In this document: positions 12,301 to 35,075 of the stretch, in pieces
How the letters are laid out: the number at the start of each line of letters is the position of its first letter
How positions within the stretch are numbered: the first letter of the stretch is position 1
Source: a virus
Lineage: Duplodnaviria > Heunggongvirae > Uroviricota > Caudoviricetes
Reading direction: 5' to 3' (one strand)
DNA: 64,000 nt
IMG/VR virus record: IMGVR_UViG_3300033067_001661
Coordinates: 269,624 to 333,623 of that record
Notes under the pieces: generated by a model
Seen by the model: the letters and a program-made list of their open reading frames with translations, nothing else
The model's database searches: none
What the model was told of the DNA's origin: nothing
Program-made: the position numbers and the translations under genes

Positions 12301-13666
12301 CTTTCAATTCTGCATTTTCCAAAGAAGCTTCGCTATAAGCCTGCCACCAATCTTGGTCTTCAGCATAGTCTCTCCATTCCATATTATTTTGAGTTCCGCC
12401 ATATACCCATTGTTGATTACCAGGCAAGCCAGCAGTATTCACTGTTGGAACGCCTATGAACTGATTAACAGCCAAATCTGTTCCGCTTATATTTGCTCCC
12501 CAAGCGTTCTTGGACTCAATAGTAAACCATCCTCTATGGAAGTTTGGAGGCATTGGGGTAGAAACCCCATTTGTTGTCATATTGAATAAAAAGCCCTTTT
12601 GAGAAGAAGACCATGTTACGGTAACGGTTCCCAACGGATAGGGATAATTTCCGTCATATGACGGGTTTGAGCTAGAACTGATTTTTGTCTGTATTGCTGA
12701 CTGCAAAATAGAAGCAACCTGTGTCATGGAAGTTGCAGCAGAAGTATTTATGTTTTGTATCTTGAGTCTTGCGTTGGCAACAGAAATAGAGAAGGCTCCA
12801 CTTGTTACAGTTCTCCAAGTAGTTAGGTCAGCCGCCTCGTTTGCACCAGAAGGCCTCCAGAACCAGTTTGAATACAAATAGCTCGCGCCCCATCCGCCCC
12901 ACATGATTATGCCATTAGCTTTTTCTTTTGCAAGAGCAACCATTTGAGACATATTGTTGTAACTTACCATTGCTCCAATATGCGTACTAGATGGATGAAA
13001 TGAAAAAGTATAGAATGGATATATTGGCTTACCATTCGCAATTTTTGACTTCATTTGATCAATGGTAACTCCAGCAAATATCTTCCAATCATTTATGAAC
13101 GATTGACTATTGCCATAAAAAGGATAACAGCTTGGAGCTACAAAATCGCAACAATTAGTAAATGGAGAAGAAACAAAAGCTCCATTTACATATCTTTGCG
13201 AAAGTCTATCCATCCAAGCGAGCCATGATTGGTAATTCGCCTGATATGTTGGATTATTTGGATTTTGAGTATATTGCAGAGGAGCATAATAATTGTTTGG
13301 ATGACCGCCAGGTATATCATACCAGCCAATTTTCAAATCGGGCCGACCCTGAGCGGCTGCTCTCGCTTTTGATCTGTTGTAAATTTCAACAAGGCAATCA
13401 AGAGCAGAATCCTTATCTGCCTCGCTCATAGAGGAATTCCAGATATAAAATCTTGGATTCTCCTCGTCCCAGGCTATTCCGTCCCAACCCTCGCTAACGG
13501 CTTGATCGACATACTGATTTATGACATCATTGTTAATTGTTAAGGTTTGATAATTAGATATCGGACTTGTACAAGCAGAAATAGCGTTCATCCCATAGAC
13601 AGACCTAAATTGTCCGGCAGAAGGCTGTCCCGTAAAACCAAAACTCGCAAAAAACTTAAATGACAT
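3398..13666 (-). CDS. Giant 3422-aa multidomain protein. At least three tandem TIM-barrel glycoside-hydrolase-like modules, a PKD domain, a pectate-lyase-like right-handed beta-helix (Asn/Gly-rich repeats), an FN3 domain (YYYKIVAYDVYGNASSP) and a further C-terminal module. Putative tail fibre or virion-associated polysaccharide depolymerase.
   Basis: Single uninterrupted 10.3 kb ORF. Repeated motif sets (KIGWYDIPG / KVGFYFNPN / KIGYYGTPF; CYPFYG / DVYPFYG / SLYPLYQG; KPIYPFYTFSFHP / KPLYVFLNPSFHFS / RPIYPFVMPTFFES; GIIMWGG / GAIVWNTY / GYIMWYGN) define tandem modules. WDFGD + AAYTYYHNNNGTPFTITL = PKD. NN.L/NNV.. beta-helix repeats. Confidence 0.65.
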   Translation of the reverse strand: MSFKFFASFGFTGQPSAGQFRSVYGMNAISACTSPISNYQTLTINNDVINQYVDQAVSEGWDGIAWDEENPRFYIWNSSMSEADKDSALDCLVEIYNRSKARAAAQGRPDLKIGWYDIPGGHPNNYYAPLQYTQNPNNPTYQANYQSWLAWMDRLSQRYVNGAFVSSPFTNCCDFVAPSCYPFYGNSQSFINDWKIFAGVTIDQMKSKIANGKPIYPFYTFSFHPSSTHIGAMVSYNNMSQMVALAKEKANGIIMWGGWGASYLYSNWFWRPSGANEAADLTTWRTVTSGAFSISVANARLKIQNINTSAATSMTQVASILQSAIQTKISSSSNPSYDGNYPYPLGTVTVTWSSSQKGFLFNMTTNGVSTPMPPNFHRGWFTIESKNAWGANISGTDLAVNQFIGVPTVNTAGLPGNQQWVYGGTQNNMEWRDYAEDQDWWQAYSEASLENAELKDFKYFMSSNYTGQPSFTGFESYGINFMQTGGISPFVESYSQAATTLLTGTLTISDSNINAGITAWLDPALGNNQALYYAYDLEFFQSYLDPASNSDTVIDNMLESFNRVYTRTKELLAARGISNVKVGFYFNPNFKSYYNPVLYWFSRGNNTGYTTSYDTWTSKFRRVNLRKSGASYYTKKFSDYTDFITCDVYPFYGEQDPFDDVYYKENLIQAAKYTAGNKPLYVFLNPSFHFSTPWCSKLVSGNYMIKMLSWCKRIADGAIVWNTYRPSFRRARVRHFMTASGGPPAVPIKTLSDWQTITNGCFNYFAQGYNRSVTGVNFSVATSVGGAESTSVANIIEAAINADLYYINNFFPTTAIYPSLTASRPYEMGSVVVAYQSSVSNNAPLSSTQVPCFEFTYTTPSVQTPPDHSSYEGREFLYCYGYSGSLPVGGTNIGSALWIGTYSNTNQEYDSNIYSGQDFDSNEWSNGWVVGNDWWHALSSMATADKYTRDRSITVMETFGSTTSNGTVRSFSGMPTVPQLKSQYNIVRSYTAYSSMTAGWSQFTDSFIDSKLDAFLAEKADIFVWDVEGDFCNVTVTGPNWPYGVTEAEVDANLEQFRSLYTRTKVRAGLKGISNIKIGYYGTPFSANSYYGAYYWGSGGLAHPIPGSVFDASMRRINQRYQNGVYVTVPFADYNDFFAPSLYPLYQGWTAAETDEILIVKGTIEKIIEVFGKVRPIYPFVMPTFFESSGYNVFMGMAQNATLSQGMYTQILDSGADGYIMWYGNLPSLYSSNHRFTPTVSKTLAQWQAITNGCFIIAVDGYPVKVEGINFSTTASMADVAQKIQDGFNNKIATIAIVTASYGSTWNSGSPTSPRNIGNVTVTWDSSNLRFVMNTLKGTLKSPSGLVFPPDFDKGYFVIRSWTAWTGSSPPGVDIGVDEWIGRHNVWTDLTNTRTDTTNEFGRWIENSRWWNSYKSIALGSYGTNVFNRVIPFINVVTPSSGEVPFTVHVDATNSYFNGVDAQDCTFEWDFGDNNPPVSVISRTMISDPRVDSDFNSDGSSHRKTSLSSKQRGINAAYTYYHNNNGTPFTITLKIWHNGVVSSTVSTTVTVSNPTIDSYPTNNPNNWVLLQVVPEQLTPPSNTFQTIDAAVSWINSNRTNGKAIIELLPGYSGSNNLNFPLNGKITISKPNILIRSSTAYSTQKPRIVAKNGSFSRSSPTALFELAATAYNVNFQDIQFGASANVTGDPGGLEQGSDNTSNLIGCVIKSPASATTNASNITFSGCLFRNLYQAVTASHFVTGVYFNQCHTSTTKIKSYDFIGCNFVINKCVHATLNGFVDGAQVFAVRTAADSPINFGGTSGLAEKLSMNFCRIDHLASLQGSSISSSGPINLYNSRYVTVYGSVLQDGSNSLNDVFAIRFDSNEMLAGGTKSLFVVTPPSSDITIVNNVLRPNTYTAGSTRINSGLFEFGGSYGLVNNLKIGNNTAIADVNTSYQKAFWNFTTATGVGLSGIEFVNNLNTEHSGYCISRWISVGTNTGQFDKFSNNVWPQRLGFMDFAFVNGVVKTWDQWVSTGYEENPSQFEVITTDLQSIYKYKLDSSTNTPLASLSILYPAASKDFNDEFRGSFSCGVGATKPYALSYSTSAFTVSPSITTRTRTAEPGWTPPSGAQNAFVAITDPVINTVDNNYASVAKPVIKKLTSNVSDILSFSSIGDTTSRALRIKFDPNGNSNIKNAYFGLLLDGGIKKFGATFVKNDNSTLSITSLTVSSYATLTDLSNAIYGAINTLFVNNNLGSPSTSIDLFGCGYLATSLLGNTSAVSIESDIYSGFGRWVYSQFSSITLGNYIKTTTTVTPTTDGYDIAITYTNDGPSGANDSVTGDVRQRIGVLRVEGVLSGLKGKFLRCTDSSNLMDYDTSFRNYFGPGLNYPFDRFAPVVVVVGETYAVGVSVLYNFATSDLISQEFIGQYGVGSIGGIGVSCISNRLAWLTDIQGDSATVNADCLARGQSMQVTLSVRVTRNVRDWVKTLAPYKAYFAATHGSVSYMKDPRPIRPVVPAISSNTQPLYYHGFEDVNNQNPATWGWAWWSNKVKYLYNTLGYERFFMWSPAGLYYNQNPYNYPSIMLTPFFDTNGTFPHSSAATVSDTCYTRLGNGTCVPGTFTVNPNLLKGTIYMLRDAIQEVPVFGFYQGYGTTVHKQWNPEAKDFVGFENMDSAYIMNKAANELHLMANYAKTNMLGLDAYAAGTKGALRQNKRAIDYIGYKYDGLRLLAEKSPEDITNINCMSFLFSFDLQSGPHVLADYILPGHETLVMFYFNTHWSDFPYSTYNEGHTKNALAAFARWGFVVGSIDNEQHASLKSPLVDASIFNAADRRFVYDQKPASVSSLAAPSGLQYKIIDAIVNQDYPDVHEQSIILSWNANIEADFSHYVVSRARIINGEPDLNLPYQEKLYTKKPIFVDYQVFPARTYYYKIVAYDVYGNASSPTAFEVTHIADDPVLNPPKNISSTANVGDGNVVVAWNAPSSEFEPSSTNRTPPKIIVQGSRRAVDLGNELFDLSNTYILVNEFVSWNNSDNRTMAQRAAEAVAEVVEARNRWASVRSNEPFRWAFWPQNFGPYDWGTPNTALFRHSSDFLSNGRYSGVWSTAGIQEARTRMQEYFGILANALNQEGIPHPYYLDPDYEGDGNGGFAGGVESERANWHNWLMADSRSSNTLFDGSISYADFTAQLKDLDGLPVPTSELYPYIYDQSLRASKLVHVYSSINAMRVDWGLYKSLFEPAKEVWPNVICGNWLLFGATRQYNANGYRFRESPVDFGPNMKSDVHVPSNYGWGLTDWIGFPTGYGYNTYYENASRFNIDLNKIKNPNEIVKAMRIASLDYSLRACEVANPNKPIAAWLSYNNTPLVYNNLYERGNPKYPNGFSASVIDDRDHMMNLFRVMNKRNVSMVGWFCGQTLGTNNTQEDTADTYSKIYEVVSNLQEAGYIV

Positions 13667-13720
13667 TCGTATCCCCTAAAGAGTTCCTATACCATTATCG
13701 GGTAGCACTAGAGCTAATAG

Positions 13721-14293: not shown

Positions 14294-16837
14294 TTAGCCG
14301 CACTTGCTATGTCCGCAATCCTTACAAGTCAAACAGCCCTCAAGACGAACAACATTAGAACTTGAGCAGCTTGGGCAAGCTACGCCAGAAGCCTTTGTTC
14401 CGTCAGGAATATACTTCTTCAATACTCTTGCCATAGCTTTACCAAAATTTGTCATGTCGCCAGGAGACTTTTCTAACTGATCAACAACATACGCTATATC
14501 TGAACCATGACGAAGAGATAGACTGATCATTCTAGTAATAACAGCCTGCTCGTCTGTCAAAAGGTCGCAAACATTCTGAACAACAGAACCGTCTTCGGCT
14601 TTGAGTTCATACTCTCCCCTCTTCTTCTTAGTAAGAGTTCCCTTCTTCAGGGTTGTAATGCAACCATTCTTACCAGCAAACACTTCATAAGGATGGCCTT
14701 CAAATATTCCAACAAGAACAAAGAAGTCTTCTCCTCTTGATTTGGTGTGATGAATGTCGCAATCAAGAACTTGAGGCCTCTTTGGAGCGTTTGTCTTCTG
14801 AATATTCTCTTTCTTCTTCTCAGAAGCAGAAACAAGAACGCCAGTCCTGCAACCGTCTCTATAGACCGTAAAGCCCTTACATCCAGCCTCCCAAGCTTTC
14901 ATGTAAACATCAGCAACGAGTTCTTTCGTAACATCATTAGGAAGATTACAAGTCTTGCTGATAGCATGGTCAATCCATTTCTGCGCGACAGATTGAATAT
15001 CTACGCTCGCAGACCAGTCTACGTCGTTTGATGTTGCCTTGTAATATGGAGACTTCTTAAAGAAGCTCAAATCATCATGAGAGTTGATAGAACCCTTTTC
15101 GCTTTCGTCAATCTTATAACCATTGACATCCATCCATTCCTTGAATTGATGATGGAATACAAAGAACTCTTGCCATTTATCACCCTTCTGATCTACAAAA
15201 TCAACGCGAGTATTGATTCCGTCGCCAGGATTAATCTTCTTACGACGCTTGTATAGCAAGCTATATGCAGGCTCAATGCCGGAAGTTGTCTGAGTCAGTG
15301 TAGAAACAGAGCCAGTAGGAGCGGTTGTTGTATTAGCTATATTCCTGCGACCATACTTCTTGTAAATAGCATAAACATCAGGAGCCGCTTCCCAAATGCG
15401 ATTAAGGAATGGATGATCCTTTTCAAGCTTATGATCAAAAACAGGGAAAGCGCCTCGCTCCTTAGCCATAACACATGACGCTCTGTATGAACCGATAGCA
15501 AGAGCTTGATACATCTTCTCGGTAAGAACAATAGATTCCTTAGAGCCGTAGCGAACTCCTAGCGCTGCAAGAGCATCGCCAAGAGCCGTAATACCAAGTC
15601 CGGTTCTACGACCGTTTACACACGCCTGTCTAATCCTTGTCCAAAGATTTCTTTCAACAAACTTTGCATCGTCAGATTCTGGATCTGCGTCAATCTTGGC
15701 GAGAATCTTATCAATCTGTTCAATTTCAATATCAATCATGTCGTCCATGAGACGTTGAGCAACTTCGGCAACTCGCTCTATTTCCTTAACATCAAGGAAT
15801 GAGTTTTCTGTAAACTTGTTACCAACAAAAGATAACAAGTTAATACAAATCAACCTACAAGAGTCATATGCGCTAAGAACAATCTCTCCGCATGGATTTG
15901 TGGAAAGACTCTCATAACCAAAGTCCTTATAGATATCAGCAGGAGTAAACTTCTGAGCAGTATCCCAAAAGAGAAGTCCAGGCTCCGCGGACTGCCAAGC
16001 AGCGTCAATAATCTCTTTCCACAAAGATTCTGCGTCAACCATCTCCCTAATCTTTGGTTCGCTAGAATTAACAGGCCAACGCAACTCAACTTGCGTCTTA
16101 TTCTTAACTGCATTCATGAACTCGTCAGTTAAACGAATAGAGATATTTGCGCCAGTTACCCTAGATAGATCTTTCTTGATGTTTATGAAAGTCCTGATTT
16201 CGGGATGATGACATGAAATAGTCAACATCAAAGCGCCGCGACGACCATTCTGCGCAACTTCTCTACAAGTATTAGAGAACCGCTCCATAAAAACGCCAAT
16301 ACCGTCAGTCGTTCTAGCTGCATTATTAGTTTGAAGACCACGAGGACGGATATGGCTAATATCAAAACCAACGCCGCCACGACGCTTCATAATTTGAGCC
16401 TGTTCTTGATCTGTCTTCAAGATACCGCCATAACTATCCTCAGGCGACGGTATAACAAAACAATTGGAACAAGACTGAATTTGATATGGATTTCCAATTG
16501 CGCTCATTGGAGAACCCTGAGGTACGATATATTTGAAATGCTTGAAATACTCGTATATCTCTTGCTCTGAAAGAGGATTAGGATATTTCTTCTCTATCCT
16601 CGCAAACTCTCTAGCAAGTCTACGATGCATTTGATCTGGATTTGATTCCAGAATTCTACCTTCATTATCTCTAAGAGCGTACTTACTTACAAAAACGCTC
16701 GCCGCCAAACTATCTCCCCCAAAGTATTCAAGCGATTTGTCCAACGCTTCTTGATTCGAGTATATCTTCTTAATTGAGCCTTCGTCTACACTAACATCAG
16801 TATCCATCATAATCATTTTCTTCTCCATGTATTCCAA
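14294..16837 (-). CDS. nrdJ: Ribonucleotide reductase catalytic subunit, probably class II (adenosylcobalamin-dependent, NrdJ-like). Class assignment not certain.
   Basis: 847 aa. Active-site NPCGEI motif. C-terminal CxxC...CxxC zinc ribbon (CPSCSS...CLTCKDC) typical of class II RNRs. No adjacent small (R2) subunit gene. Confidence 0.7.
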   Translation of the reverse strand: MEYMEKKMIMMDTDVSVDEGSIKKIYSNQEALDKSLEYFGGDSLAASVFVSKYALRDNEGRILESNPDQMHRRLAREFARIEKKYPNPLSEQEIYEYFKHFKYIVPQGSPMSAIGNPYQIQSCSNCFVIPSPEDSYGGILKTDQEQAQIMKRRGGVGFDISHIRPRGLQTNNAARTTDGIGVFMERFSNTCREVAQNGRRGALMLTISCHHPEIRTFINIKKDLSRVTGANISIRLTDEFMNAVKNKTQVELRWPVNSSEPKIREMVDAESLWKEIIDAAWQSAEPGLLFWDTAQKFTPADIYKDFGYESLSTNPCGEIVLSAYDSCRLICINLLSFVGNKFTENSFLDVKEIERVAEVAQRLMDDMIDIEIEQIDKILAKIDADPESDDAKFVERNLWTRIRQACVNGRRTGLGITALGDALAALGVRYGSKESIVLTEKMYQALAIGSYRASCVMAKERGAFPVFDHKLEKDHPFLNRIWEAAPDVYAIYKKYGRRNIANTTTAPTGSVSTLTQTTSGIEPAYSLLYKRRKKINPGDGINTRVDFVDQKGDKWQEFFVFHHQFKEWMDVNGYKIDESEKGSINSHDDLSFFKKSPYYKATSNDVDWSASVDIQSVAQKWIDHAISKTCNLPNDVTKELVADVYMKAWEAGCKGFTVYRDGCRTGVLVSASEKKKENIQKTNAPKRPQVLDCDIHHTKSRGEDFFVLVGIFEGHPYEVFAGKNGCITTLKKGTLTKKKRGEYELKAEDGSVVQNVCDLLTDEQAVITRMISLSLRHGSDIAYVVDQLEKSPGDMTNFGKAMARVLKKYIPDGTKASGVACPSCSSSNVVRLEGCLTCKDCGHSKCG

Positions 16838-16890: not shown

Positions 16891-18234
16891 TTAGAAATCG
16901 TCATCTAAAAAATCTTCTAACATAGGATTCATTGATTGTCCAAAGCCAAATGGCTTATTCTTACTCTGTTGCTCCATGTAGGTGGAATAATCCTTATCCT
17001 TTGTTTCCTTAATTGCTCTATCAAAATGCTTCTTTTGAAGAAGGAGTTTTTCTCCTTCGAAAGAAGAATCTTTGACTGCAAATATAGCAGAGGTTAAACA
17101 GAGGTCGTTCATGTGAGCGCCAGTTAGACCTTCAGTTGCCTTTGCAAGTTTTTCAAAATTAACGGTCTTGGCTACAACAAACTTCTCCGTGAACTTACGG
17201 AGCATTTTTACTCGACATTCTTCGTCGGGCTTATCAACGCTTATGATTCTATCAAATCTTCCCGGGCGATTCTTAATCGCGTTCTCAAGTTCTCCAAGCG
17301 CATTTGTTGTTCCGAGCGTTATGATATCGCCAAAAGATTCAAGACCGTCAAGCTTATTCATAAGCTCCATAACGAACGCCGAGCCACCCTTTGATCTATC
17401 AGAAGCAATCCAATCAATGTCTTCTATTACAAAGAGGCATGGAGCAAGATCTTTTGCTATCTCGCAAACTCTAGATATAGAATTGGGATTAGGAAAATCA
17501 GAAGGCAAAGCGTACAAAACGCTATATCCTGATTCTCTCGCAAGACACTTACAAATCTTTGTCTTACCAGTACCAGGTACGCCATGAAGAATAACGCCTC
17601 TCTTAACCGAGAGACCATATTTCTTGAAAGTTTCTCTTAGAGCAAAATTCTCTTCTATATTAGACTTAATAACCTTCTTCGTACTTTCGGGAAGAATGAT
17701 ATCGTCCCAAGAAACATTTTCTAGCTTTAAGAAGTTGCCTCTGCAATCAATTTTCTTACCCTTATAAAGGTTATTCTCAGAAGCATACTTCTTAAGTTTT
17801 TGCAACAGCTTAGAATCTTCTTCAGAAGTTGTTATGCTATAGGAATATTCTTCTCTTCCATGACCCCTATCAATTTGAACACAAAGCTTGCTACCTTCTT
17901 TCTCATAAAAGAGACAGCCTTCTCTGTATCCCTTGATATACTTGTCAGGAGATATCTCTATGTCGAATGTTACAACAGGAGTTTTCGCTGTAAACGAAAA
18001 ATCGCACTGCTCTGTTAGAGTCCATCCCTCTTTAGTAAAGAAGTCATTCCAAACAGCCTGCATCTTTCTATGCTCATAAGGAGAGAGCGTCTCCGAATTG
18101 AGGGCTGTTGTTTTGGCGTTTCCAAATAAACCATTAATATAGTTATCCCTAAAAGAGTCTCCTTCAGCAGCCATTAATGAATGGGCGAACTCTAATAAGG
18201 TTGCGTCCTTAAGATTAATCTTAGATATGTCCAT
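16891..18234 (-). CDS. AAA+ ATPase (classic AAA clade).
   Basis: Walker A GVPGTGKT, Walker B LFVIEDIDW, SRH-like region. ORF track starts at 18345 (non-ATG, overlaps upstream gene by 110 nt). The internal ATG (MDISKINL) at ~18234 abuts the upstream stop and is the more likely start. Confidence 0.75.
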   Translation of the reverse strand: MDISKINLKDATLLEFAHSLMAAEGDSFRDNYINGLFGNAKTTALNSETLSPYEHRKMQAVWNDFFTKEGWTLTEQCDFSFTAKTPVVTFDIEISPDKYIKGYREGCLFYEKEGSKLCVQIDRGHGREEYSYSITTSEEDSKLLQKLKKYASENNLYKGKKIDCRGNFLKLENVSWDDIILPESTKKVIKSNIEENFALRETFKKYGLSVKRGVILHGVPGTGKTKICKCLARESGYSVLYALPSDFPNPNSISRVCEIAKDLAPCLFVIEDIDWIASDRSKGGSAFVMELMNKLDGLESFGDIITLGTTNALGELENAIKNRPGRFDRIISVDKPDEECRVKMLRKFTEKFVVAKTVNFEKLAKATEGLTGAHMNDLCLTSAIFAVKDSSFEGEKLLLQKKHFDRAIKETKDKDYSTYMEQQSKNKPFGFGQSMNPMLEDFLDDDF

Positions 18235-18235
18235 A

Positions 18236-19381
18236 TTATATATTGCTCTTCTCTGTTCTCGCTTTATCAGCGTAGTATTCAAAAAACGGGGCAACGAGTT
18301 GCTCGATACGAACCGCCCCATTTTCCTGCCTCTTAGCAAAGTCAATTACTGCTGATATCTTATCGTCAAGAGGAACCTTCGCCGCGCCAGCACCACGACG
18401 CCCTCCTCCATACTTTTTGCCAAATATCTTCTGAATAAACTGAGAAACATTGATACCCAAAACGCCTGTTCTGAAAGATGCTATCAAAAACTTGGGCTTA
18501 TCAAAGCCTTCGTCAACAAGCCCCATAACAAGAGCGCTATCTATTGACTCGACTTCGAGCATTTCTTCGCAAAGCTTCGCAAGCAAAGCTCTTTGCTGAG
18601 GATTAACAATGCCAACATTTGATATGGTCAGGTTGTTTCCGCTAATACAGAAGTTTGAATATGCTCTTCTTCTAAGCTCCAACAAAGCCAAAGGCTTAGG
18701 ATAATCGTAGATCTTCCTAAGAAGCTCAACGTCCATAATTGACCTGAGAAAATCCATTGCGTCAATATCGTTCTGAACGGTTCCTTCTGATTTCAAATCC
18801 GCAGTATCTGTTGAAATGCCAAGATAAAGAGCCGTTGCAAGACCTTTGCTTATTGGAATATTCAATCCCGTTAGCATTTCAAGCAATATAGTCGAGCATG
18901 CGCCGTACTGCTTATTTATATACATAGGACAGTCTATACAAGGATTAATTGTATGATGGTCTATAACAGCGTCTGGCTTTCTATCTTTTTCAAGGAAAGC
19001 AAAAACTCCGGTATTGTTTTCTTTTCCGAAGTTTGCGCTTGTATCAACAACAATGACGCAGCTTTTCTTGATGTTGTCTTTTATTTGCTGAGTTGATTCT
19101 TCTTCGTTATCCTCGTCAACCTCAAGCTTAATTGCTGAAATATTGAGGACATTCATCATGACGCTATTTTGGGTATAAGGAATTTCTCCGCCATAATAAA
19201 TGACGGCATTCTTCCCCTTTGATTGAGCAAGGGTTTGAATGGCAAAAGCCGAAGCCAAACAATCGGGGTCTGGCTGGTCATGACAAATGATTGAAATGTC
19301 GTCGTTCTTGTCAATAATAGACAACCACTTTTCAACAACCTTAGTGTCAATCTTGATATTTTCCGTTTGCTGATCGCCCAT
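18236..19381 (-). CDS. DHH-family phosphoesterase with DHHA1 domain (NrnA/RecJ-like nanoRNase or pAp phosphatase).
   Basis: DHH motif VIDHHTINP. Upstream Asp-rich motifs (ICHDQPDPD, VVDTS). C-terminal GGGRRGAGAA resembles the DHHA1 GGGH motif. Confidence 0.7.
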   Translation of the reverse strand: MGDQQTENIKIDTKVVEKWLSIIDKNDDISIICHDQPDPDCLASAFAIQTLAQSKGKNAVIYYGGEIPYTQNSVMMNVLNISAIKLEVDEDNEEESTQQIKDNIKKSCVIVVDTSANFGKENNTGVFAFLEKDRKPDAVIDHHTINPCIDCPMYINKQYGACSTILLEMLTGLNIPISKGLATALYLGISTDTADLKSEGTVQNDIDAMDFLRSIMDVELLRKIYDYPKPLALLELRRRAYSNFCISGNNLTISNVGIVNPQQRALLAKLCEEMLEVESIDSALVMGLVDEGFDKPKFLIASFRTGVLGINVSQFIQKIFGKKYGGGRRGAGAAKVPLDDKISAVIDFAKRQENGAVRIEQLVAPFFEYYADKARTEKSNI

Positions 19382-21333: not shown

Positions 21334-21888
21334 CTACGTCTCAGTCGGAACGCTCAGGTTCTTTTTGAATGCATCTATGAACTCTTGGTTCATGTCTACA
21401 ACTTCGATTTTGATTCTTCCGTTATAGGCCTCAGCAACATGCGCCATTTCTCTAGCAACATCGAACTTGCTAAGGCCTCCGATACCACATCCTAGGCCTC
21501 CAAAAGCTATCGAGCTTTCACCATTTGCGATTGCTGTTTCAAAAACTTTCGTCAAGAGAGAGGGTATCGTGCCTAAAGAAGTTTGTCCACCAGGATACTT
21601 CATTGTGACCGCATGGTAGATTCTTTTCACTCCCCTGCGCTTCAAAAGCCCTGCGTCAGAGATGTAAACGTCCCCAACATCGAACGGACCTTCTTTTTCG
21701 ACGACCTCAGCCACAATTGTTCGGATATTGACACCATTTGGTTCGGTACTTGTACCTGCCGAACGAGCGATAGCGCCTGCTACGCCCGCTCCCATGACTC
21801 CAATACCGTTTGCGGCGTTCACGATAACGTCAACGCCTTCAACCTTCGTGATATCGCCAACGTAGACCTTCATGGCTAACCCTTTCAA
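21334..21888 (-). CDS. Macro domain protein (ADP-ribose binding/hydrolase).
   Basis: GDITKVEGVDVIVNAANGIGVMGAGVAGAIARSAG matches the macro domain signature (GDIT...AIVNAAN..L..GGGV..AI). Confidence 0.8.
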   Translation of the reverse strand: MKGLAMKVYVGDITKVEGVDVIVNAANGIGVMGAGVAGAIARSAGTSTEPNGVNIRTIVAEVVEKEGPFDVGDVYISDAGLLKRRGVKRIYHAVTMKYPGGQTSLGTIPSLLTKVFETAIANGESSIAFGGLGCGIGGLSKFDVAREMAHVAEAYNGRIKIEVVDMNQEFIDAFKKNLSVPTET

Positions 21889-22703
21889 GACTGAAGTATA
21901 GCCTCCAATCCCTTCATGTAGTTGGGATTGAGTTTCACTTTTTTCTGCAACCGCTCAAGAATCTTGGAGTGCATTTGACTGATTCTGGATTCGCTGTAAC
22001 CAGTCTCTTTTGCAATCTCTTTCATGGTCATATTATCGTAGTAATGCATGTGAACAATCTTCCTCTCAAGAGGAATGAAGTTCTTGCCCATGAGTTTCTT
22101 GAACATTTCTTCACGAAGAACATTGCCATCAGGTCTCTCTTCGTCAGTTGTAATACTCTCTATCTGAATCTCTTCTCCTGAATCCGAATTTTCGGATTTA
22201 CCTGCATTCATGCTGATGCAACTAACCGGAGTAGCCTTTGAACTAATCTCCATGTATTCATCCAGTGACATGCCCATATGGTCAGCAATCTCTTCATGAG
22301 TTGGCATTCTACCAAGCTCTGATTCAAGAGTCTGCTTTACCTTCTGAATCTTAGAGTATCGCTGTCTAACCAGACGAGGAACCCAATCAACTTGACGAAT
22401 ATTGTCAAGGATTGAACCTTTTATACGATGTATTGCGAAGGTTTCAAACTTATTCTTGAGAGACGGATCAAATCTCTCAACAGCATGAAACAACCCGTCC
22501 GTACCCCAGGCAACAAGGTCGTCGATATCGACCTCTCTTATCTTCTTGTGCATTCTTTCTGCCACTTTGCTTACAAGTGGGTAGTAAATCTCAAGTAAAG
22601 AGTTTCTTGCTTTGATGTACTGCGGGTCTTGCTTATCCAACGTCTCTCGTATTACAACAAACTCTTCCCACTTGTTTCTGATTGATTCTTCACTAATCAT
22701 CAA
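21885..22703 (-). CDS. RNA polymerase sigma factor, FliA (sigma-28)/WhiG family homolog.
   Basis: Collinear similarity to E. coli FliA across regions 2-4: YYPLVSKVAERM; DDLVAWGTDGLFHAVERFD; FETFAIHRIKGSILDNIRQVDWVPRLVRQR; LESELGRMPTHEEIADHMGMSLDEY; IPLERKIVHMHYYDNMTMKEIAKETGYSESRISQMHSKILERL. GAAGGAG SD 7 nt upstream. Confidence 0.8.
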   Translation of the reverse strand: MMISEESIRNKWEEFVVIRETLDKQDPQYIKARNSLLEIYYPLVSKVAERMHKKIREVDIDDLVAWGTDGLFHAVERFDPSLKNKFETFAIHRIKGSILDNIRQVDWVPRLVRQRYSKIQKVKQTLESELGRMPTHEEIADHMGMSLDEYMEISSKATPVSCISMNAGKSENSDSGEEIQIESITTDEERPDGNVLREEMFKKLMGKNFIPLERKIVHMHYYDNMTMKEIAKETGYSESRISQMHSKILERLQKKVKLNPNYMKGLEAILQS

Positions 22704-22798
22704 CTAGCTCCTTCTCTGCTGTCAGCTACAACCAAGTATACAACGCTACAAAAGCACTATCTTTGTATTCAGAACCAGAGCCTCATATTTAGGCTGAT

Positions 22799-24385: not shown

Positions 24386-24612
24386 CTGTTTATCTCCGGG
24401 AAATCAAATATGTATCCATAACGATTGATGTAAGAAAATATCTCGTCAAACCCTACAAATTCCCTAAATAATCGAGTCGTCTTGATAGAGAAAACAAACC
24501 TATCATCTGTATAAACGAACGTATGCCCTATCTTTCTACTAAGCAGCAAGTAGCTTATTTTATAGCCACTTCTTGAACAATCGCCATAGAAGAAAGACTC
24601 ATACTCTCTCAT
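24373..24612 (-). CDS. Small hypothetical protein (79 aa).
   Basis: ORF overlapping neighbours by 13 and 4 nt in an operon arrangement. Confidence 0.3.
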   Translation of the reverse strand: MREYESFFYGDCSRSGYKISYLLLSRKIGHTFVYTDDRFVFSIKTTRLFREFVGFDEIFSYINRYGYIFDFPEINSWNS

Positions 24613-24947
24613 GCCTTCTTTTTGCTATTTCCGAACTTATCAGACCTCTGTAGCGCTGTCTGAATTATTTCCCACTTACTCTTCCCAATCTCGCTCTTGC
24701 TAAGGGATAAAGACGTTTTAGCCTTTGAAGTGAGACTCATAGCCATAACCGTCACATATAGCCATTTGTTTTCTGGCGCAGAAATGCTATACTTTTCAAA
24801 GAAACCCCAATCAGAAAGCTCTGCATACAAAACAAGAGCTTCACCAGTAACAGCCTTGTCTGGTCTAGAAAAAGCCTCCTTAATTTGCTCGTAAGCCTCT
24901 ACCGCCTTTTCAACCGTTTGTATTTTGAAGCTCATTACCTTTTCCAT
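24609..24947 (-). CDS. Small hypothetical protein (112 aa).
   Basis: ORF. Start overlaps the divergent endolysin 5' region. Confidence 0.3.
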   Translation of the reverse strand: MEKVMSFKIQTVEKAVEAYEQIKEAFSRPDKAVTGEALVLYAELSDWGFFEKYSISAPENKWLYVTVMAMSLTSKAKTSLSLSKSEIGKSKWEIIQTALQRSDKFGNSKKKA

Positions 24948-25854
24948 ATTGAAATCTCCATGTCAATCTAAAGTATATCGTCAATCAAGGGAAAGTAATA
25001 AAGCCGAAGTATATAGAAGTATGCAACAAGAAAATGGATGGTACATCAGAGCAAAAAGTCTAACTCTCCACAAAGAGGCAGACGTAAACTGGAAAGACGT
25101 TCGCAAAGGGCTTGGTATAGGAGGAACCTTAGGCGTATTACCTCTTAGCTTTAGTCTTATGGGACAACCTTCGGTTCCAGAAAATAAACAACAAGCTCCA
25201 ACAAGAGAAGTTCAACCTCAGCAACAACCGCCTAAAGCAACCCCAGTTGAGCAATCTAAATTAGAACAAACTCCACAACTCCAAAAGGCTACTCCTCAGC
25301 AATTGCCTCAAGGTATGGTTTCAGAAGACGAGCTTGAATCTTTTATCGCCCCGTTTGAAGGCGGCTTTATAGCTAAGGCATATAAAGATAGTAAAGGAAT
25401 ATGGACTGTTGGTTGCGGTTTTAACCTGGAAAGAAAAGACGCAAACACTCTTCTTAAAAGTATTGGCGCAACTAAAAATGGGCTAATCTCTGGCAAAGAA
25501 ACCCTTAGTCAAGATCAAATGTCTAAGCTATTTAGAGTTAATCTAAAAACGGCTATCGCTGACGCCCAAAAATGGATTCCAAACCTAAGTAGTCAACCCA
25601 AAGAAATTCAACTCATTTGCGTTGATATGTCCTTCAATATGGGAGGACCAACTCTGTCTAAGTTTGTTAATACCGGCAAAGCTATAGCCAACAAAGAATA
25701 CTCAAAGGCTGCTGGTCTCATGGAAAAGAGCGCCTGGTATGGGCAAGTTGGAAATAGATCAAAGCATCATGTTAGAGTTATGAAAGAGCTTGGGAAGAAT
25801 CAAGCTCAAACACCAGCTTCGCAATCTTCGCAGCCGCAGAAGCGTCAGCCATAG
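24925..25854 (+). CDS. Endolysin, GH24 (T4-lysozyme-like) muramidase, with an N-terminal hydrophobic segment (possible signal-anchor-release domain) and a Pro/Gln-rich linker.
   Basis: Catalytic-region pattern FEGGFIAKAYKDSKGIWTVGCGFN (E ... D ... T as in T4 lysozyme [21 protein letters not shown]). Hydrophobic GLGIGGTLGVLPLSFSLMG. True start may be the downstream ATG (MQQENGW, ~25021), because the 5' end overlaps a minus-strand gene. Confidence 0.65.
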   Translation: MKLITFSILKSPCQSKVYRQSRESNKAEVYRSMQQENGWYIRAKSLTLHKEADVNWKDVRKGLGIGGTLGVLPLSFSLMGQPSVPENKQQAPTREVQPQQQPPKATPVEQSKLEQTPQLQKATPQQLPQGMVSEDELESFIAPFEGGFIAKAYKDSKGIWTVGCGFNLERKDANTLLKSIGATKNGLISGKETLSQDQMSKLFRVNLKTAIADAQKWIPNLSSQPKEIQLICVDMSFNMGGPTLSKFVNTGKAIANKEYSKAAGLMEKSAWYGQVGNRSKHHVRVMKELGKNQAQTPASQSSQPQKRQP

Positions 25855-27283: not shown

Positions 27284-27390
27284 CGCACAACAAAGGAGAT
27301 ACACCCAACAAAGACAATAGCGTAAAGAGGAAAAAGAAGTGGAATACCGAAAATGATGTGTAAGGAGAACACTACATTGAAGGTCTATAT

Positions 27391-28002
27391 ATGAAATGGT
27401 ATGAAAAAGCAATCCCAAGAATACGAGACATTCAGCCTTATCTAAAAGAGGCTTCGAAGAATATTTCTAATTTCAAGCAAGTTAAGAACATATATGCTTG
27501 GGGTTCTCTCGCTGAAAACTTCAACAAGAAAGACCATAGAATCAAAGACGTAGACATACTTATTGAATGCAACTTTGATTCTGGCGATTTACTAGCTATT
27601 GACAACAGCTTCAATGGCGCTCTAAAAATGTCTTCTGAAGAGCTAGAAGACTTAGGATTCAATCCGGCAGCCGTTCTCTTTACGAAGTCAATACTAAGCC
27701 ATAAAATGCCTTCTATTGATTTCTGGGCAGTCTCAAAGGACAAGAAACTACTGCACTGGGGACCAATAACCGAGACAGTTGAAGAGTGGAAGCAGGTTAG
27801 AAAAGAAGCCGAAAACAAAGCCGAGATTCTAACAGGTTTCAAAAACAAAGAGGTTCTTAGCGCTTCAGAAAATGACCGAAAGAAATGGCATGAAGCATAT
27901 GAAAAGTATCTTCAGGATTTCTCAAGCGGTTGTCCTCAAGGATGGTACTCTTCTCAAAACAATGTAGATAAGATATTCGAAAAAGCCGTTAAGCTTTTAT
28001 GA
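27391..28002 (+). CDS. Minimal nucleotidyltransferase-fold (pol-beta superfamily) protein.
   Basis: GS-x(n)-DxD motif: AWGSLAENFNKKDHRIKDVDILIE. N-terminus MKWYEKA shares the recurrent MxWY motif. Confidence 0.5.
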   Translation: MKWYEKAIPRIRDIQPYLKEASKNISNFKQVKNIYAWGSLAENFNKKDHRIKDVDILIECNFDSGDLLAIDNSFNGALKMSSEELEDLGFNPAAVLFTKSILSHKMPSIDFWAVSKDKKLLHWGPITETVEEWKQVRKEAENKAEILTGFKNKEVLSASENDRKKWHEAYEKYLQDFSSGCPQGWYSSQNNVDKIFEKAVKLL

Positions 28003-28409: not shown

Positions 28410-28782
28410 GAACATACATTTGTCGCCAGTCTATATCTATGAAATCGGGATACTCGTCATAGATATAAGACAAAACTTCGTCGTTGATATAGATTGCTAT
28501 ATCTTCACAAGTCATATAAGGAGACGGTTCTTTGATTGGAACTCTAACTCTTCTTTCGCAAAAATACCCAATCAGAATGTTGGATACAGCGCTACTACGT
28601 CGTTTGCCGACAATTTCTAAAGGCTCCTGCTCCACAAAGTAGTCTCTTATCGAGATCAAACTCGTAATGAACGTCTTTTGCCACTCCTCTCGGGTCTTGC
28701 TCATAAAATCTCCTTTACAGGTATATCGAGCAGAGGAAGTGTTTTTCTTTGCAGCGTAAATAGAAAAGACGATAATATACAA
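28354..28782 (-). CDS. Hypothetical protein with an acidic C-terminus (DGDEEEEW).
   Basis: 142-aa ORF. Convergent 56-nt overlap with 27999..28409. Confidence 0.3.
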   Translation of the reverse strand: MYIIVFSIYAAKKNTSSARYTCKGDFMSKTREEWQKTFITSLISIRDYFVEQEPLEIVGKRRSSAVSNILIGYFCERRVRVPIKEPSPYMTCEDIAIYINDEVLSYIYDEYPDFIDIDWRQMYVLKEDIDELLADGDEEEEW

Positions 28783-28796: not shown

Positions 28797-29306
28797 ATGA
28801 TCAAATCTATCTTAGATGCAACCTGTCAAATCTTTGTAGCAATTCTTGGAAAGTTTCGTTCCAAAAAGACAGTCGAGGCACCAGCCGTAAGTCTTCAAAA
28901 CGAACAAGCGATTACCATAACAATCAAAGCCGACGAAGAGAATGTAGAAACAAGCATTCCCGTCATTACAAAAGACAAACTACTGTTTCAACCCAATACG
29001 ATGCAGGCAAATAGTCCTCTAGAATGCCCTATTCGTTCTAAAAATCAACAAGCGTCAACAGAGATATCTATTGACGCTCCTAAGATTGAAAACTTCAAAA
29101 TAACGATTGAATGCAATGAAACAGCCATCAATCATCTCAACAACCTTTGTAGGTTCTTTGAAGTGAATCAGCCAGACGCCCTTGCAAGAGGGGTTTGGTT
29201 GCTCACAATAGCGAGAGATGTTGAAGTTAACAATAAGAAACTTGGTATCATAACGACAGACCAGAATGGTCTAATTGTTGACGTTATGCCAATCAATATT
29301 GTTTAA
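28797..29306 (+). CDS. Hypothetical protein (169 aa).
   Basis: ORF with AGGAAGG-like SD upstream. No recognised motifs. Confidence 0.3.
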   Translation: MIKSILDATCQIFVAILGKFRSKKTVEAPAVSLQNEQAITITIKADEENVETSIPVITKDKLLFQPNTMQANSPLECPIRSKNQQASTEISIDAPKIENFKITIECNETAINHLNNLCRFFEVNQPDALARGVWLLTIARDVEVNNKKLGIITTDQNGLIVDVMPINIV

Positions 29307-33483: not shown

Positions 33484-34027
33484 GTATTTGGGTATTGACT
33501 ATACCATAGTCATTGACTATGTAACTATCAAGGTTGTTGGTTACTATTTTGCCGCAAAATGCCAGGTTCAAACAGAATGAACGAGTAAGCATTTCTTTTG
33601 CTGGTCGATCAACTCCCGTAACGTCAAAAACTTGAAACTCAAGCTTGTCAGAAACTAAGACAATCGAGTTTGTCAAGAGCCGAACGGTTAGATGGTCGTT
33701 TTGTGAAATATGAGCAGCAAGTCTGTCAACAAACTCCTCAGAGATACTCATGGAAGTTTCAACTTCTTTTCCTGCAACTCTTAGACACGCTGTTACAGTC
33801 TCGACCATTCTTTTTGTGTCAAAATAAGAACTTGCAACTAAGAAAACAAATGGTTTACAAGATCCTACCTTTGGAGTAAAAACCTTTGTAACCATATTCT
33901 TCCGAGAGGTTTCTAACAAGATTTTGTTTCTACTTAAAAAGATATCTTTACAAGCAAAACAAAACTCGCTAAGTTTCTGGGAGAGAATGTTAAATCGTGA
34001 TTTGTTTTCTTCCATGTGAATACTCAA
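33449..34027 (-). CDS. Hypothetical protein (192 aa), second gene of the ATPase cassette.
   Basis: Start overlaps the ATPase stop by 4 nt (translational coupling). Confidence 0.4.
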   Translation of the reverse strand: MSIHMEENKSRFNILSQKLSEFCFACKDIFLSRNKILLETSRKNMVTKVFTPKVGSCKPFVFLVASSYFDTKRMVETVTACLRVAGKEVETSMSISEEFVDRLAAHISQNDHLTVRLLTNSIVLVSDKLEFQVFDVTGVDRPAKEMLTRSFCLNLAFCGKIVTNNLDSYIVNDYGIVNTQILANADKVINGK

Positions 34028-35041: not shown

Positions 35042-35075
35042 CCTCCTGACTAACCGTTTATCGGCAATCAGGAGG
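35042..35075 (-). promoter_or_regulatory. Perfect 8-bp hairpin (CCTCCTGA...TCAGGAGG) followed by U6, directly upstream of the ATPase start. Acts as a terminator for the upstream gene and sequesters the ATPase Shine-Dalgarno (GGAGG).
   Basis: Minus strand reads CCTCCTGATTGCCGATAAACGGTTAGTCAGGAGGTTTTTTC-ATG. The 3' arm contains the only SD for the ATG at 35034. Confidence 0.5.

What the first reader, a model, noticed from the sequence alone, without database searches (positions are those of the whole stretch)
21885..22703. Phage-encoded FliA (sigma-28) homolog
The ORF is collinear with E. coli FliA across regions 2.1-4.2, with near-identical spacing of conserved blocks. A phage carrying its own flagellar-type sigma factor could redirect host RNAP to phage middle/late promoters, or manipulate host motility gene expression. 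I could not find canonical TAAA-N15-GCCGATAA promoters in the window by eye. The recurring GAACTAAACTTC and ~35-nt repeats are candidates for its cognate sites, but that link is speculative.
Basis: partly seen in the sequence, partly recalled or inferred. Interest (0 to 1): 0.6.

Follow-up and report, generated by a model that had tools for sequence, protein, structure and literature searches.

The report
Huge-phage sigma-28-type transcription factor
A very large aquatic phage carries its own copy of the bacterial "flagellar" sigma factor, and matching promoter-like boxes in front of several phage genes suggest it steers the host RNA polymerase onto the phage's own genes rather than onto motility genes.

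Summary
The ORF is real. It lies on the minus strand at 21885..22703, with a likely ATG at 22700 (271 aa). It is a complete group-3 sigma-70-family factor. It has regions 2, 3 and 4, passes the NCBIfam FliA/WhiG subfamily cutoff only narrowly (194 vs 189.6 bits), and fails every equivalog model. It is 34% identical to E. coli FliA with 4% gaps. [quoted passage not shown]

It is a syntenic core gene of uncultivated viral contigs up to 494 kb. No close relative was found in GTDB genomes. About 70 homologs form their own clade, marked by a conserved C-terminal tail (NPxY...L...L).

However, sigma-28-like -10 boxes (consensus tGnCGATAA) are enriched upstream of genes: 11 found vs 1.8 expected in the window. 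Several are conserved at orthologous positions in divergent relatives. There is no conserved -35, and a held-out set of loci showed only a weak trend.

The sigma gene itself has a different conserved promoter (ATAGTG-N14-TATACTT). The GAACTAAACTTC repeat is confined to a distant GC-rich module and is not the cognate site.

Verdict: a new member of the known class of phage-encoded sigma factors, with a plausible, untested cognate promoter class.

The parts
21885..22700 (-). Sigma factor CDS (271 aa from ATG 22700; the mechanical ORF starts at TTG 22703). Its stop overlaps the start of the next gene.
22380..22592 (-). Region 2 (aa 37-107). Includes RIKGSILDNIRQVDWVPR, with D, R and R aligned to E. 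coli FliA D81, R84 and R91, the -10 and extended -10 readers.
   Evidence: residue roles from PMC12784957
22137..22352 (-). Region 3 (aa 117-188). Ends in an acidic, low-confidence linker (aa 160-188), equivalent to region 3.2.
21939..22067 (-). Region 4 (aa 212-254). Its recognition helix is SESRISQMH, against GESRVSQLH in E. coli FliA.
21888..21935 (-). Clade-specific C-terminal tail KLNPNYMKGLEAILQS (NPxY..L...L). Absent from E. coli, Aquifex and Streptomyces sigma-28 proteins. Predicted helical at low confidence.
22734..22760 (-). Conserved promoter-like element upstream of the sigma gene: ATAGTG (22755-22760), a 14-nt spacer, then TATACTT (22734-22740). It contains no CGA box.
22708..22714 (-). 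Shine-Dalgarno sequence GAAGGAG, 7 nt before ATG 22700.
13695..13702 (-). Candidate cognate -10 box CCCGATAA. It follows a terminator hairpin and lies 28 nt before the 3422-aa DUF3383 gene (3398..13666). Relatives keep it as CCGATAA, GCCGATTA or GGCGATAA.
18360..18367 (-). Candidate box GACGATAA upstream of the AAA ATPase gene (16891..18345). Related boxes sit upstream of the orthologs in L004, L005 and L024.
24975..24982 (-). Candidate box GACGATAT, 27 nt before gene 24609..24947. TGACGATA is present in all seven sequences of the orthologous set (six lineages, L004 and L005 being close relatives).
27346..27353 (+). Candidate box ACCGAAAA, 37 nt before gene 27391..28002. YCGAA is conserved in the relatives examined (CGAAA in most, CGAAG in L005).
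28768..28775 (+). Candidate box GACGATAA, 21 nt before gene 28797..29306. Relatives carry GTCGATAT and GTCGATAA.
35058..35065 (-). Exact GCCGATAA at the apex of a terminator hairpin (35036-35077, -24.1 kcal/mol) whose 3' arm is the AGGAGG ribosome-binding site of gene 34024..35034. Box and hairpin are both kept in L018 with different stem sequences. The box alone is kept in L022.
38674..38681 (-). Candidate box TCCGATGA, 30 nt before gene 37846..38643. TAAA lies one position farther upstream than the canonical spacing (N16 rather than N15). L018 has GTCGATTC.
44726..44733 (-). Candidate box GCCGATTT, directly after a terminator and upstream of gene 41845..44649. L028 has GTCGATTC and L018 has GTCGAAAA.

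Best explanation
The gene encodes a functional group-3 sigma-70-family factor of the FliA/WhiG (sigma-28) type. It is a vertically inherited core gene of a clade of very large uncultivated aquatic phages.

Proposed mechanism, all of it inferred:
1. The gene is transcribed from its own conserved promoter (ATAGTG-N14-TATACTT). That promoter differs from the boxes described below and is presumably read by a host holoenzyme.
2. The protein binds host core RNA polymerase.
3. It directs the polymerase to phage promoters whose main determinant is a sigma-28-like extended -10 element, tGnCGA(T/A)A(A/T), with no conserved -35 element.
4. These boxes lie 20-45 nt upstream of start codons of replication and nucleotide-metabolism genes (ribonucleotide reductase, AAA and SMC-like ATPases) and of a giant DUF3383 gene that I take, from memory and not from a test here, to be structural.

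What is shown: the family assignment, conservation of the DNA-reading residues, the viral context and synteny, and the enrichment and orthologous conservation of the boxes. What is inferred: RNAP binding, the pairing of this sigma with these boxes, and the order of events.
For: Family assignment:
- Pfam r2, r3 and r4 all match.
- TIGR02479 FliA_WhiG scores 194 bits (cutoff 189.6), against 134 for SigBFG and 91 for RpoD_Cterm.
- The best solved relatives by sequence are WhiG, E. coli FliA, Aquifex FliA and P. aeruginosa FliA.
- The best Foldseek hit is a B. subtilis integrative model labelled RPSD-RPOB, which I read as SigD.
- Identity to E. coli FliA is 34%.

DNA-reading residues: those equivalent to Ec D81, R84, R91, R74 and the 4.2-helix S and Q are invariant across the phage clade. 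Their roles come from PMC12784957.

Viral context:
- Homologs at 66-94% identity lie on IMG/VR contigs of 19-494 kb.
- The best GTDB hit is 36% identical.
- A block of about 20 kb is syntenic in nine loci.
- The sigma-Macro-HNH-MptE-DHH-AAA-RNR order holds down to 45-57% identity, including a 486,833-bp Tara scaffold.
- Tail-bearing homologs are essentially monophyletic in a neighbour-joining tree.

Promoter boxes, tested with the literature consensus (CGA fixed):
- Window alone: 4 boxes within 1 mismatch in upstream zones vs 0.25 expected (P=1e-4). Within 2 mismatches: 11 vs 1.8 (P=4e-6).
- Window plus eight relatives: 37 vs 10 (P=4e-11).
- An unbiased 5-mer ranking of 118 upstream zones is topped by GTCGA, TCGAA and TCGAT, alongside T-runs and the ribosome-binding site.
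- Boxes persist at orthologous positions where the flanks no longer align.
- In the aligned sites G-15, T-10, A-9 and A-8 are favoured while -7 is not. This matches sigma-28 and not sigma-70.

No second sigma gene is present in the window.
Against: - No transcription data exist, and the sigma-promoter pairing is purely inferential.
- The box carries little information and is not enriched genome-wide by simple counts.
- No -35 element is conserved, although the sigma keeps a FliA-like 4.2 helix. TAAA at near-canonical spacing occurs in only 5 of 28 sites.
- In held-out loci covering the 41-64 kb part of the genome, enrichment was weak and not significant: 2 vs 0.5 and 6 vs 3. The stricter post-hoc pattern gave 0 hits there.
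- Orthologous sites are not independent, so the pooled P values are optimistic.
- Some boxes lie too close to the mechanically called start codon (18360, gap of 14 nt).
- A host FliA, if the host has one, could read the same boxes.
- The viral nature rests on IMG/VR classification and gene content. No capsid, portal or terminase gene is in the window.
Confidence: 0.6

Rival explanations
1. The sigma is an auxiliary gene aimed at the host. It switches on, or competes for, the host's late flagellar and chemotaxis regulon to alter motility during infection.
For: The residues that read both the FliA -10 and -35 elements are conserved. The protein could therefore in principle recognise host sigma-28 promoters. 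The nearest cellular homolog, P0114 (38-40% identity), sits next to a ParA/MinD-type gene and near an MCP gene, as genuine fliA genes do. Two MptE/Maf-like genes, a family linked to flagellin glycosylation, lie nearby.
Against: The gene is a syntenic core gene embedded among replication and nucleotide-metabolism genes across a deep clade. That pattern is not typical of a sporadic host-derived accessory gene. The clade is long separated from cellular FliA, at 45% identity or less. Sigma-28-like boxes sit in front of phage genes. No flagellar gene is in the window.
Confidence: 0.12
2. The sigma is functional, but the CGA boxes are not its targets. The boxes would be read by another factor or be non-promoter signals, and the phage sigma would recognise a different, unidentified motif, for example the TATACTT class.
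For: The box has low information content, has no -35, and shows only a weak trend in held-out loci. TATACTT is itself over-represented, 23 vs 8.1 expected. A 9-10-nt block RTATACTTAA is unusually well conserved upstream of the sigma gene.
Against: Conserved D81, R84 and R91 equivalents predict a GC-CGA type -10, not TATACT. The flanking preferences of the boxes (G-15, T-10, A-9, A-8, free -7) match sigma-28. TATACT resembles an ordinary sigma-70 -10.
Confidence: 0.2
3. The window is not from a phage but from a cellular genome or large plasmid-like element, and the gene is an ordinary cellular alternative sigma factor.
For: No capsid, portal or terminase gene is in the window. There is no match to cultured phage genomes. 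Contigs of 0.46-0.49 Mb overlap the size of tiny cellular genomes. Sources include NCBI MAG records.
Against: No close relative was found in 185,579 GTDB species genomes. All close relatives are IMG/VR viral contigs. The window has no tRNA genes. No ribosomal or other cellular housekeeping function appeared among the roughly 40 ORFs profiled. What did appear was PHROG-type helicases, RNR, dUTPase, ThyX, a phage lysozyme domain and a DUF3383 domain.
Confidence: 0.07
4. GAACTAAACTTC is the sigma's cognate site.
For: The motif is a true repeat and contains CTAAA, which resembles the sigma-28 -35 element.
Against: All six copies lie in one 1.3-kb GC-rich module. They sit 19-45 nt before the next ATG, too close for a -35, and no CGA box follows at a fixed distance. 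The relative L028 has GGCTAGACTT(T/C)C at the same intergenic positions, although the DNA-contact residues are invariant across the sigma clade. The exact word is absent from all 39 loci.
Confidence: 0.03

Closest known systems
Bacterial FliA / sigma-28 (E. coli, PDB 6PMI; P. aeruginosa, 9WSM), B. subtilis SigD, Streptomyces WhiG
   Same: Same group-3 architecture (regions 2, 3 and 4, no region 1.1). 34% identity to E. coli FliA with the same block spacing. Conserved D81/R84/R91-type -10 readers and the SRxSQ helix of region 4.2. The candidate target boxes share the GnCGATAA core of GCCGATAA and its non-conserved -7.
   Different: Encoded in a viral genome away from any flagellar gene. Fails every FliA, WhiG and sigma-28 equivalog cutoff. 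Forms its own clade with a conserved C-terminal NPxY..L...L tail, a roughly 30-aa N-terminal extension and a 3-residue deletion in region 4.1. The candidate promoters lack the TAAA -35. No FlgM or RsiG partner was identified.
Sigma factors of RNAP-less jumbo phages ('group 2' of Iyer et al. 2021, PMC7824862; review PMC13282480)
   Same: Same concept. Large phages without their own RNAP carry well-conserved bacterial-type sigma factors that are thought to recruit host core RNAP to phage promoters.
   Different: Those described are either RpoD-like or minimal single-HTH forms. A FliA/WhiG-type with a proposed cognate box is not described in the papers searched.
Phage-encoded group-3-like sigmas of Bacillus phages (SPO1 gp28 and gp33/34; sporulation-type sigF/sigG homologs, PMC9429907)
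   Same: Phage-borne alternative sigma factors that reprogramme host RNAP.
   Different: Different subfamily: SigB/F/G scores 60 bits lower here. Identity to those phage proteins is only 26-32%.
T4 gp55 late sigma (with gp33 and the gp45 clamp)
   Same: A phage sigma-family protein that uses promoters consisting only of a -10-type element. It carries a short conserved C-terminal tail that serves as a protein-docking epitope (PMC2988020).
   Different: gp55 is a truncated sigma (region 2 only) with an acidic-hydrophobic tail. This protein is a full sigma with region 4, and its tail is not acidic. No clamp or gp33 homolog was identified here, so the resemblance is only an analogy.

Membership tests
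Sigma-70 family | Regions 2, 3 and 4 present in order | tested here: met
   Pfam PF04542, PF04539 and PF04545 all score above gathering cutoffs. The fold search returns only sigma factors.
Group 3 sigma factors | No region 1.1 or non-conserved region; length about 240-280 aa | tested here: met
   271 aa, with no Sigma70_r1 hits. The N-terminal 30 aa are a short helix not homologous to region 1.1.
FliA/WhiG subfamily (TIGR02479) | Score at or above the curated cutoff, and better than sister subfamilies | tested here: met
   194.0 bits vs a cutoff of 189.6, a marginal pass. SigBFG scores 134 and the ECF superfamily model 101.
FliA / WhiG / sigma-28 equivalogs (NF005413, NF004935, NF005809, NF004572, NF009091) | Score at or above the equivalog or subfamily cutoff | tested here: not met
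   167 vs 201, 186 vs 343, 157 vs 326, 156 vs 378 and 111 vs 339. It is therefore not an ortholog of any curated cellular FliA or WhiG.
FliA (sigma-28) | -10 and extended -10 reading residues (Ec D81, R84, R91; Pa D87, R80, R97) | tested here: met
   D99, R102 and R109 are invariant in 37 sequences. R92 (equivalent to Ec R74) is also invariant. Roles are taken from PMC12784957.
FliA (sigma-28) | Region 4.2 residues reading the TAAA -35 (Pa S224, Q228) | tested here: met
   S238-R-I-S-Q242 aligns to Ec S219-R-V-S-Q223. S238, R239 and Q242 are invariant.
FliA (sigma-28) | Cognate bipartite promoter TAAA-N15-GCCGATAA in front of target genes | tested here: inconclusive
   There is no full match. 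-10-like boxes are enriched upstream of genes and conserved in relatives. No -35 is conserved. TAAA at the right distance occurs in 5 of 28 sites.
FliA (sigma-28) | Genomic and regulatory association with flagellar or chemotaxis genes | tested here: not met
   The neighbours are a membrane protein, Macro, HNH, MptE-like, DHH, AAA and RNR genes. The cellular homolog P0114, by contrast, lies next to a ParA/MinD-type gene and near an MCP gene.
FliA (sigma-28) | Control by an anti-sigma factor (FlgM, or RsiG for WhiG) | tested here: inconclusive
   No Pfam hit to an anti-sigma factor among the ten neighbouring ORFs. FlgM is short and poorly conserved, so absence is not shown.
Phage-encoded sigma factors | Encoded in a viral genome and conserved among related viruses | tested here: met
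   Close homologs lie on IMG/VR contigs with conserved synteny, and none was found in GTDB. PHROG phrog_351 'RNA polymerase sigma factor' matches at E=8e-36. Caveat: no virion hallmark gene is in the window.
Phage-encoded sigma factors | Binds host core RNAP and confers promoter specificity | not testable with these tools
   Requires biochemistry or infection transcriptomics.

The most novel reading that the evidence does not exclude
This clade of half-megabase phages may run much of its middle and late programme through a sigma-28-derived factor that has become independent of the -35 element, using only an extended -10 (tGnCGATAA). Its clade-specific C-terminal helix (NPxY..L...L) might be the adaptation that allows this. 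It could dock to another phage factor, as the gp55 tail docks to the T4 clamp, or it could shield sigma domain 4 from the host anti-sigma FlgM. At least one promoter is embedded in the loop of the preceding terminator. Transcripts started there would lack the 5' arm of the hairpin and would expose the ribosome-binding site.
Probability: 0.2. Interest if true: 0.65.

Novelty: new member of a known kind. Interest (0 to 1): 0.45.

Why it matters
Phages above 200 kb that lack their own RNA polymerase are assumed to reprogramme the host enzyme with their own sigma factors. For uncultivated huge phages, however, neither the sigma class nor the promoters are known.

This work gives a concrete, testable pairing. 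On one side is a sigma-28-type factor whose DNA-reading residues are conserved. On the other is a tGnCGATAA box in front of identifiable phage genes, across a widespread aquatic clade that includes a 487-kb Tara Oceans scaffold.

If confirmed, it would allow promoter and operon annotation and temporal-class prediction in these genomes. It would also be an example of a "flagellar" sigma lineage being repurposed for a viral programme. The finding is not surprising in kind, because phage sigma factors are textbook.

Tried and rejected
- A nucleotide search of cultured and GenBank phage genomes found no match. A protein search found only relatives at 37% identity or less.
- An exact-protein lookup found nothing on record.
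- The canonical bipartite sigma-28 promoter has 0 matches.
- Whole-window counts of CCGATAA, GCCGATAA within 1 mismatch, and CGATA show no global or noncoding enrichment. Enrichment appears only when the analysis is restricted to sense-strand zones upstream of starts.
- GAACTAAACTTC as the cognate site is rejected.
- The sigma-70-type promoter scan around the gene found no more hits than in shuffled sequence.
- The post-hoc strict pattern GNCGAWAW gave 0 hits in upstream zones of three held-out loci. I therefore do not claim the box is universal in the genome.
- A search for a conserved -35 found no informative position between -53 and -17.
- There is no second sigma paralog in the window.
- The clamp-binding reading of the C-terminal tail has no support. 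Other window proteins have acidic, SSB-like C-termini, but none shares the sigma's tail.
- The structure model adds little beyond the family assignment. Domain arrangement is uncertain (pTM 0.42) and the tail has low confidence.
- Literature searches found no description of a phage FliA-type sigma with cognate promoters. Absence from this library is not proof of absence.
Full report
**1. The observation**

The window has an ORF on the minus strand at 21885..22703 (272 codons from TTG). GGAG lies 7 nt upstream of the ATG at 22700 and the close homologs are 271 aa, so 22700 is the probable start.

Pfam finds sigma-70 regions 2 (aa 37-107), 3 (117-188) and 4 (212-254), all above gathering cutoffs. 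phmmer against PDB sequences aligns aa 30-255 with residues 11-236 of E. coli FliA (6pmi_F, E=7.5e-33). The other top hits are Streptomyces WhiG, Aquifex FliA and P. aeruginosa FliA. BLASTP against the E. coli FliA segment gives 34% identity over 229 columns with 4% gaps.

**2. Which sigma group**

NCBIfam places the protein in FliA_WhiG (TIGR02479). The score is 194.0 bits against a cutoff of 189.6, a narrow pass. The next subfamily, SigB/F/G, scores 134, the ECF superfamily model 101 and RpoD 91.

All equivalog-level models for FliA, WhiG or chlamydial sigma-28 are missed by wide margins. The protein belongs to the subfamily but is not an ortholog of a curated cellular FliA.

An AlphaFold model built from 37 sequences (mean pLDDT 77.8, pTM 0.42) matches only sigma factors in the PDB. 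The best hit is a B. subtilis integrative model labelled RPSD-RPOB, which I read as SigD, the FliA ortholog. The low pTM reflects uncertain domain arrangement, so I use the model only for family support.

**3. Is it phage-encoded?**

- The window has no nucleotide match among 50,697 deposited phage records. Protein matches there reach at most 37% identity.
- Homologs of the sigma at 66-94% identity lie on IMG/VR viral contigs of 19 to 494 kb.
- A scan of one genome per GTDB species found nothing closer than 36%.
- A block of about 20 kb around the gene is syntenic in all nine viral loci.
- The order membrane protein, sigma, Macro, HNH, MptE-like (x2), DHH, AAA, RNR persists in relatives whose sigma is only 45-57% identical. 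One of these is a 486,833-bp Tara Oceans scaffold.
- The window has no tRNA genes. No cellular housekeeping function appeared among the roughly 40 ORFs I profiled.
- What those ORFs do encode is RNR, dUTPase, ThyX, helicases, an exonuclease, a phage-lysozyme domain and a 3422-aa protein with a DUF3383 domain.
- No capsid, portal or terminase gene is in the window, so the viral assignment is strong but indirect. I put it at about 0.9.

**4. A distinct sigma clade**

Among the 118 best full-length database hits, 72 end with a conserved tail, NPxY(M/A)..L...L. In a neighbour-joining tree these 72 plus the window protein form a clade of 76 leaves with only three exceptions. The remaining hits, at 38-45% identity, lack the tail. 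One of them, P0114, lies next to a ParA/MinD-type gene and near an MCP gene, the usual setting of genuine fliA.

The phage clade also has an N-terminal extension of about 30 aa and a 3-residue deletion in region 4.1.

**5. DNA-reading residues**

A 2026 structural paper on P. aeruginosa sigma-28 (PMC12784957) assigns the following roles:
- R97 reads the GC of the extended -10.
- R80 and D87 read -12 and -13.
- A-11 is flipped out.
- The -7 position is not read.
- S224 and Q228 read the -35 element TCTAAAG.

The E. coli equivalents are R91, R74, D81, S219 and Q223. In the phage protein these positions are R109, R92, D99, S238 and Q242. All are invariant in a 37-sequence alignment spanning the clade and its cellular neighbours. 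The protein therefore looks equipped to read a sigma-28-type promoter.

**6. Searching for its promoters**

The full TAAA-N15-GCCGATAA pattern is absent. GCCGATAA-like words are not enriched in the window as a whole.

Reading the intergenic regions showed CGAT-containing boxes 20-45 nt before several start codons. Comparing orthologous upstream regions from relatives, where the flanking sequence no longer aligns, the boxes persist:

| Downstream gene | Box in window | Box in relatives |
|---|---|---|
| Giant gene 3398..13666 | CCCGATAA | ACCGATAA, GCCGATTA, GGCGATAA |
| SMC-like ATPase 34024..35034 | GCCGATAA | GTCGATAA, GCCGATAG |
| 24609..24947 | GACGATAT | TGACGATA in all seven sequences of the set (six lineages) |
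| 28797..29306 | GACGATAA | GTCGATAT, GTCGATAA |
| 27391..28002 | ACCGAAAA | YCGAA in all relatives examined (CGAAA in most) |
| 37846..38643 | TCCGATGA | GTCGATTC |
| 41845..44649 | GCCGATTT | GTCGATTC, GTCGAAAA |
| RNR 14294..16837 | CGAATACT | CGAATACT (L039), CGAATATT (L025) |

Aligning 28 such sites on CGA gives W-W-G-N-C-G-A-(T>A)-A-(A>T), with no preference at the next position and no informative position anywhere from -53 to -17. The favoured flanks (G-15, T-10, A-9, A-8) and the free -7 match sigma-28. A sigma-70 -10 would require T-7, and its extended TG would sit one position closer.

**7. Statistics and their limits**

I tested the literature consensus with CGA fixed. Upstream sense-strand noncoding zones were compared with all other sequence.

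| Data set | Within 1 mismatch, observed vs expected | Within 2 mismatches, observed vs expected |
|---|---|---|
| Window alone | 4 vs 0.25 (P=1e-4) | 11 vs 1.8 (P=4e-6) |
| Window plus eight relatives | 11 vs 1.6 | 37 vs 10 (P=4e-11) |
| Held-out loci L028, L029, L031 (region homologous to 41-64 kb) | 2 vs 0.5 (P=0.10) | 6 vs 3.0 (P=0.09) |

- An unbiased 5-mer ranking of 118 upstream zones against coding sequence is headed by GTCGA, TCGAA and TCGAT, together with T-runs and the ribosome-binding site.
- The pooled values are inflated because orthologous sites are not independent.
- My stricter post-hoc pattern gave 0 hits in the held-out upstream zones, although relaxed variants occur there.
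- I conclude that the box is a real conserved upstream element for a subset of genes. I do not claim it is a genome-wide rule.
- TAAA at near-canonical distance occurs in 5 of 28 sites, against about 2 expected. That is a hint, not a -35 element.

**8. Two structural details**

The exact GCCGATAA at 35058-35065 lies at the apex of a strong terminator hairpin (-24.1 kcal/mol, z=-6.2). The 3' arm of that hairpin is the AGGAGG ribosome-binding site of the next gene. In L018 both box and hairpin are kept with different stem sequences. A start a few nucleotides downstream of the box would give a transcript that lacks the 5' arm and leaves the ribosome-binding site free. This is inference.

The sigma gene has a different upstream element, ATAGTG-N14-TATACTT in the window. 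The block RTATACTTAA is conserved in all close relatives, and GTATACTT in L024. It contains no CGA box. This fits a cascade in which the sigma is made first from another promoter class. The order of events is not shown.

**9.

All six copies of GAACTAAACTTC lie at 62408-63734, in a module of small genes with 51% G+C against about 40% elsewhere.
- Each copy sits at or just after a stop codon.
- Each lies 19-45 nt before the next ATG, too close to serve as a -35 for that gene.
- No CGA box follows at a fixed distance.
- The exact word is absent from all 39 fetched loci.

The homologous module of relative L028 carries GGCTAGACTT(T/C)C eight times in the same intergenic positions. The motif has changed between relatives, while the DNA-contact residues are invariant across the sigma clade. 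That argues against it being this sigma's site. Its function remains unexplained.

**10. Comparison with what is known**

Reviews state that jumbo phages without their own RNAP usually carry bacterial-type sigma factors that probably recruit host RNAP to phage promoters (PMC7824862; PMC13282480). The huge-phage survey mentions a phage sigma-70 and AsiA-like proteins (PMC7162821). A survey of phage sigma factors centred on sporulation types does not mention FliA or WhiG (PMC9429907).

I found no description of a FliA-type phage sigma with proposed promoters. JGI's automatic annotation already labels several members as FliA.

T4 gp55 is a useful functional analogy, with -10-only promoters and a docking tail (PMC2988020). 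It is not a relative, and I found no support for a clamp-binding role of the tail here.

**11. Verdict**

- The family assignment (sigma-28 subfamily, phage-specific clade) is secure.
- The viral context is very likely.
- Redirection of host RNAP to phage tGnCGATAA promoters is the best-supported mechanism, at about 0.6, but it is untested.
- Host-motility manipulation and the GAACTAAACTTC link are unlikely.
- In kind, this is a new member of the known class of phage-encoded sigma factors. The added value is a specific, testable promoter hypothesis.

Noticed in passing
window 62408-63734 (- strand); L028 1-2750: A GC-rich (51%) operon of small genes carries GAACTAAACTTC at or after each stop codon. 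The last copy is followed by a terminator hairpin near 62340-62375. The homologous module in relative L028 carries GGCTAGACTT(T/C)C eight times in the same positions. The shared core is CTA(A/G)ACTT(T)C, which embeds a stop codon. Function unknown; a processing or reinitiation signal, or a promoter for another factor, are possibilities.
   Followed up: partly
window 3398-13666 (-): A single 3422-aa ORF has a DUF3383 domain at about aa 1240-1335 and no PHROG match. I take it, from memory of that family, to be a giant virion or tail-associated protein. It is conserved in all relatives and preceded by a terminator and a CCCGATAA box.
   Followed up: partly
window 21334-21888 (-) and 20703-21329 (-): A Macro-domain protein (ADP-ribose binding or hydrolysis) overlaps the sigma stop codon by 4 nt and is followed by an HNH nuclease. 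The sigma-Macro-HNH trio is conserved down to 45% sigma identity. A link to ADP-ribosylation of RNAP or of defence targets is conceivable but untested.
   Followed up: no
window 19383-20054 and 20033-20809 (-): Two tandem paralogs have a GNGPSL motif and a partial MptE-like (PF01973, formerly the Maf/DUF115 family) match. I recall this family as including flagellin nonulosonic-acid glycosyltransferases. It is a curious neighbour for a 'flagellar' sigma, and is conserved across the clade.
   Followed up: no
window 35036-35077 (-): A terminator hairpin has the next gene's ribosome-binding site as its 3' arm and an exact GCCGATAA in its apex. The relative L018 keeps both with a different stem sequence.
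   Followed up: yes
window 59248-62175 (-): Three tandem paralogous genes (309, 287 and 275 aa) lie here; the one profiled (59401..60330) carries HTH domains (HTH_58). They are separated by a repeated intergenic sequence, AAAGGGTA(C/T)(G/A)CCGTCACTTAAAATTC, followed by AGGGATACC.
   Followed up: no
window 16891-18345, 28354-28782, 32536-33483 (-): Three proteins end in acidic tails tipped with an aromatic residue (..LEDFLDDDF, ..DGDEEEEW, ..EDEEVDF). These are reminiscent of SSB-type C-terminal docking tips.
   Followed up: no
window 30185-30336: An imperfect GAC/GAA-rich repeat encodes a poly-Asp/Glu tract on the + strand, in a region without a confidently called gene.
   Followed up: no
L024 10666-12822; L039 9631-10887: In two distant relatives the ribonucleotide reductase gene is interrupted by an intein with a LAGLIDADG endonuclease. 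The window's RNR (847 aa) is not.
   Followed up: no
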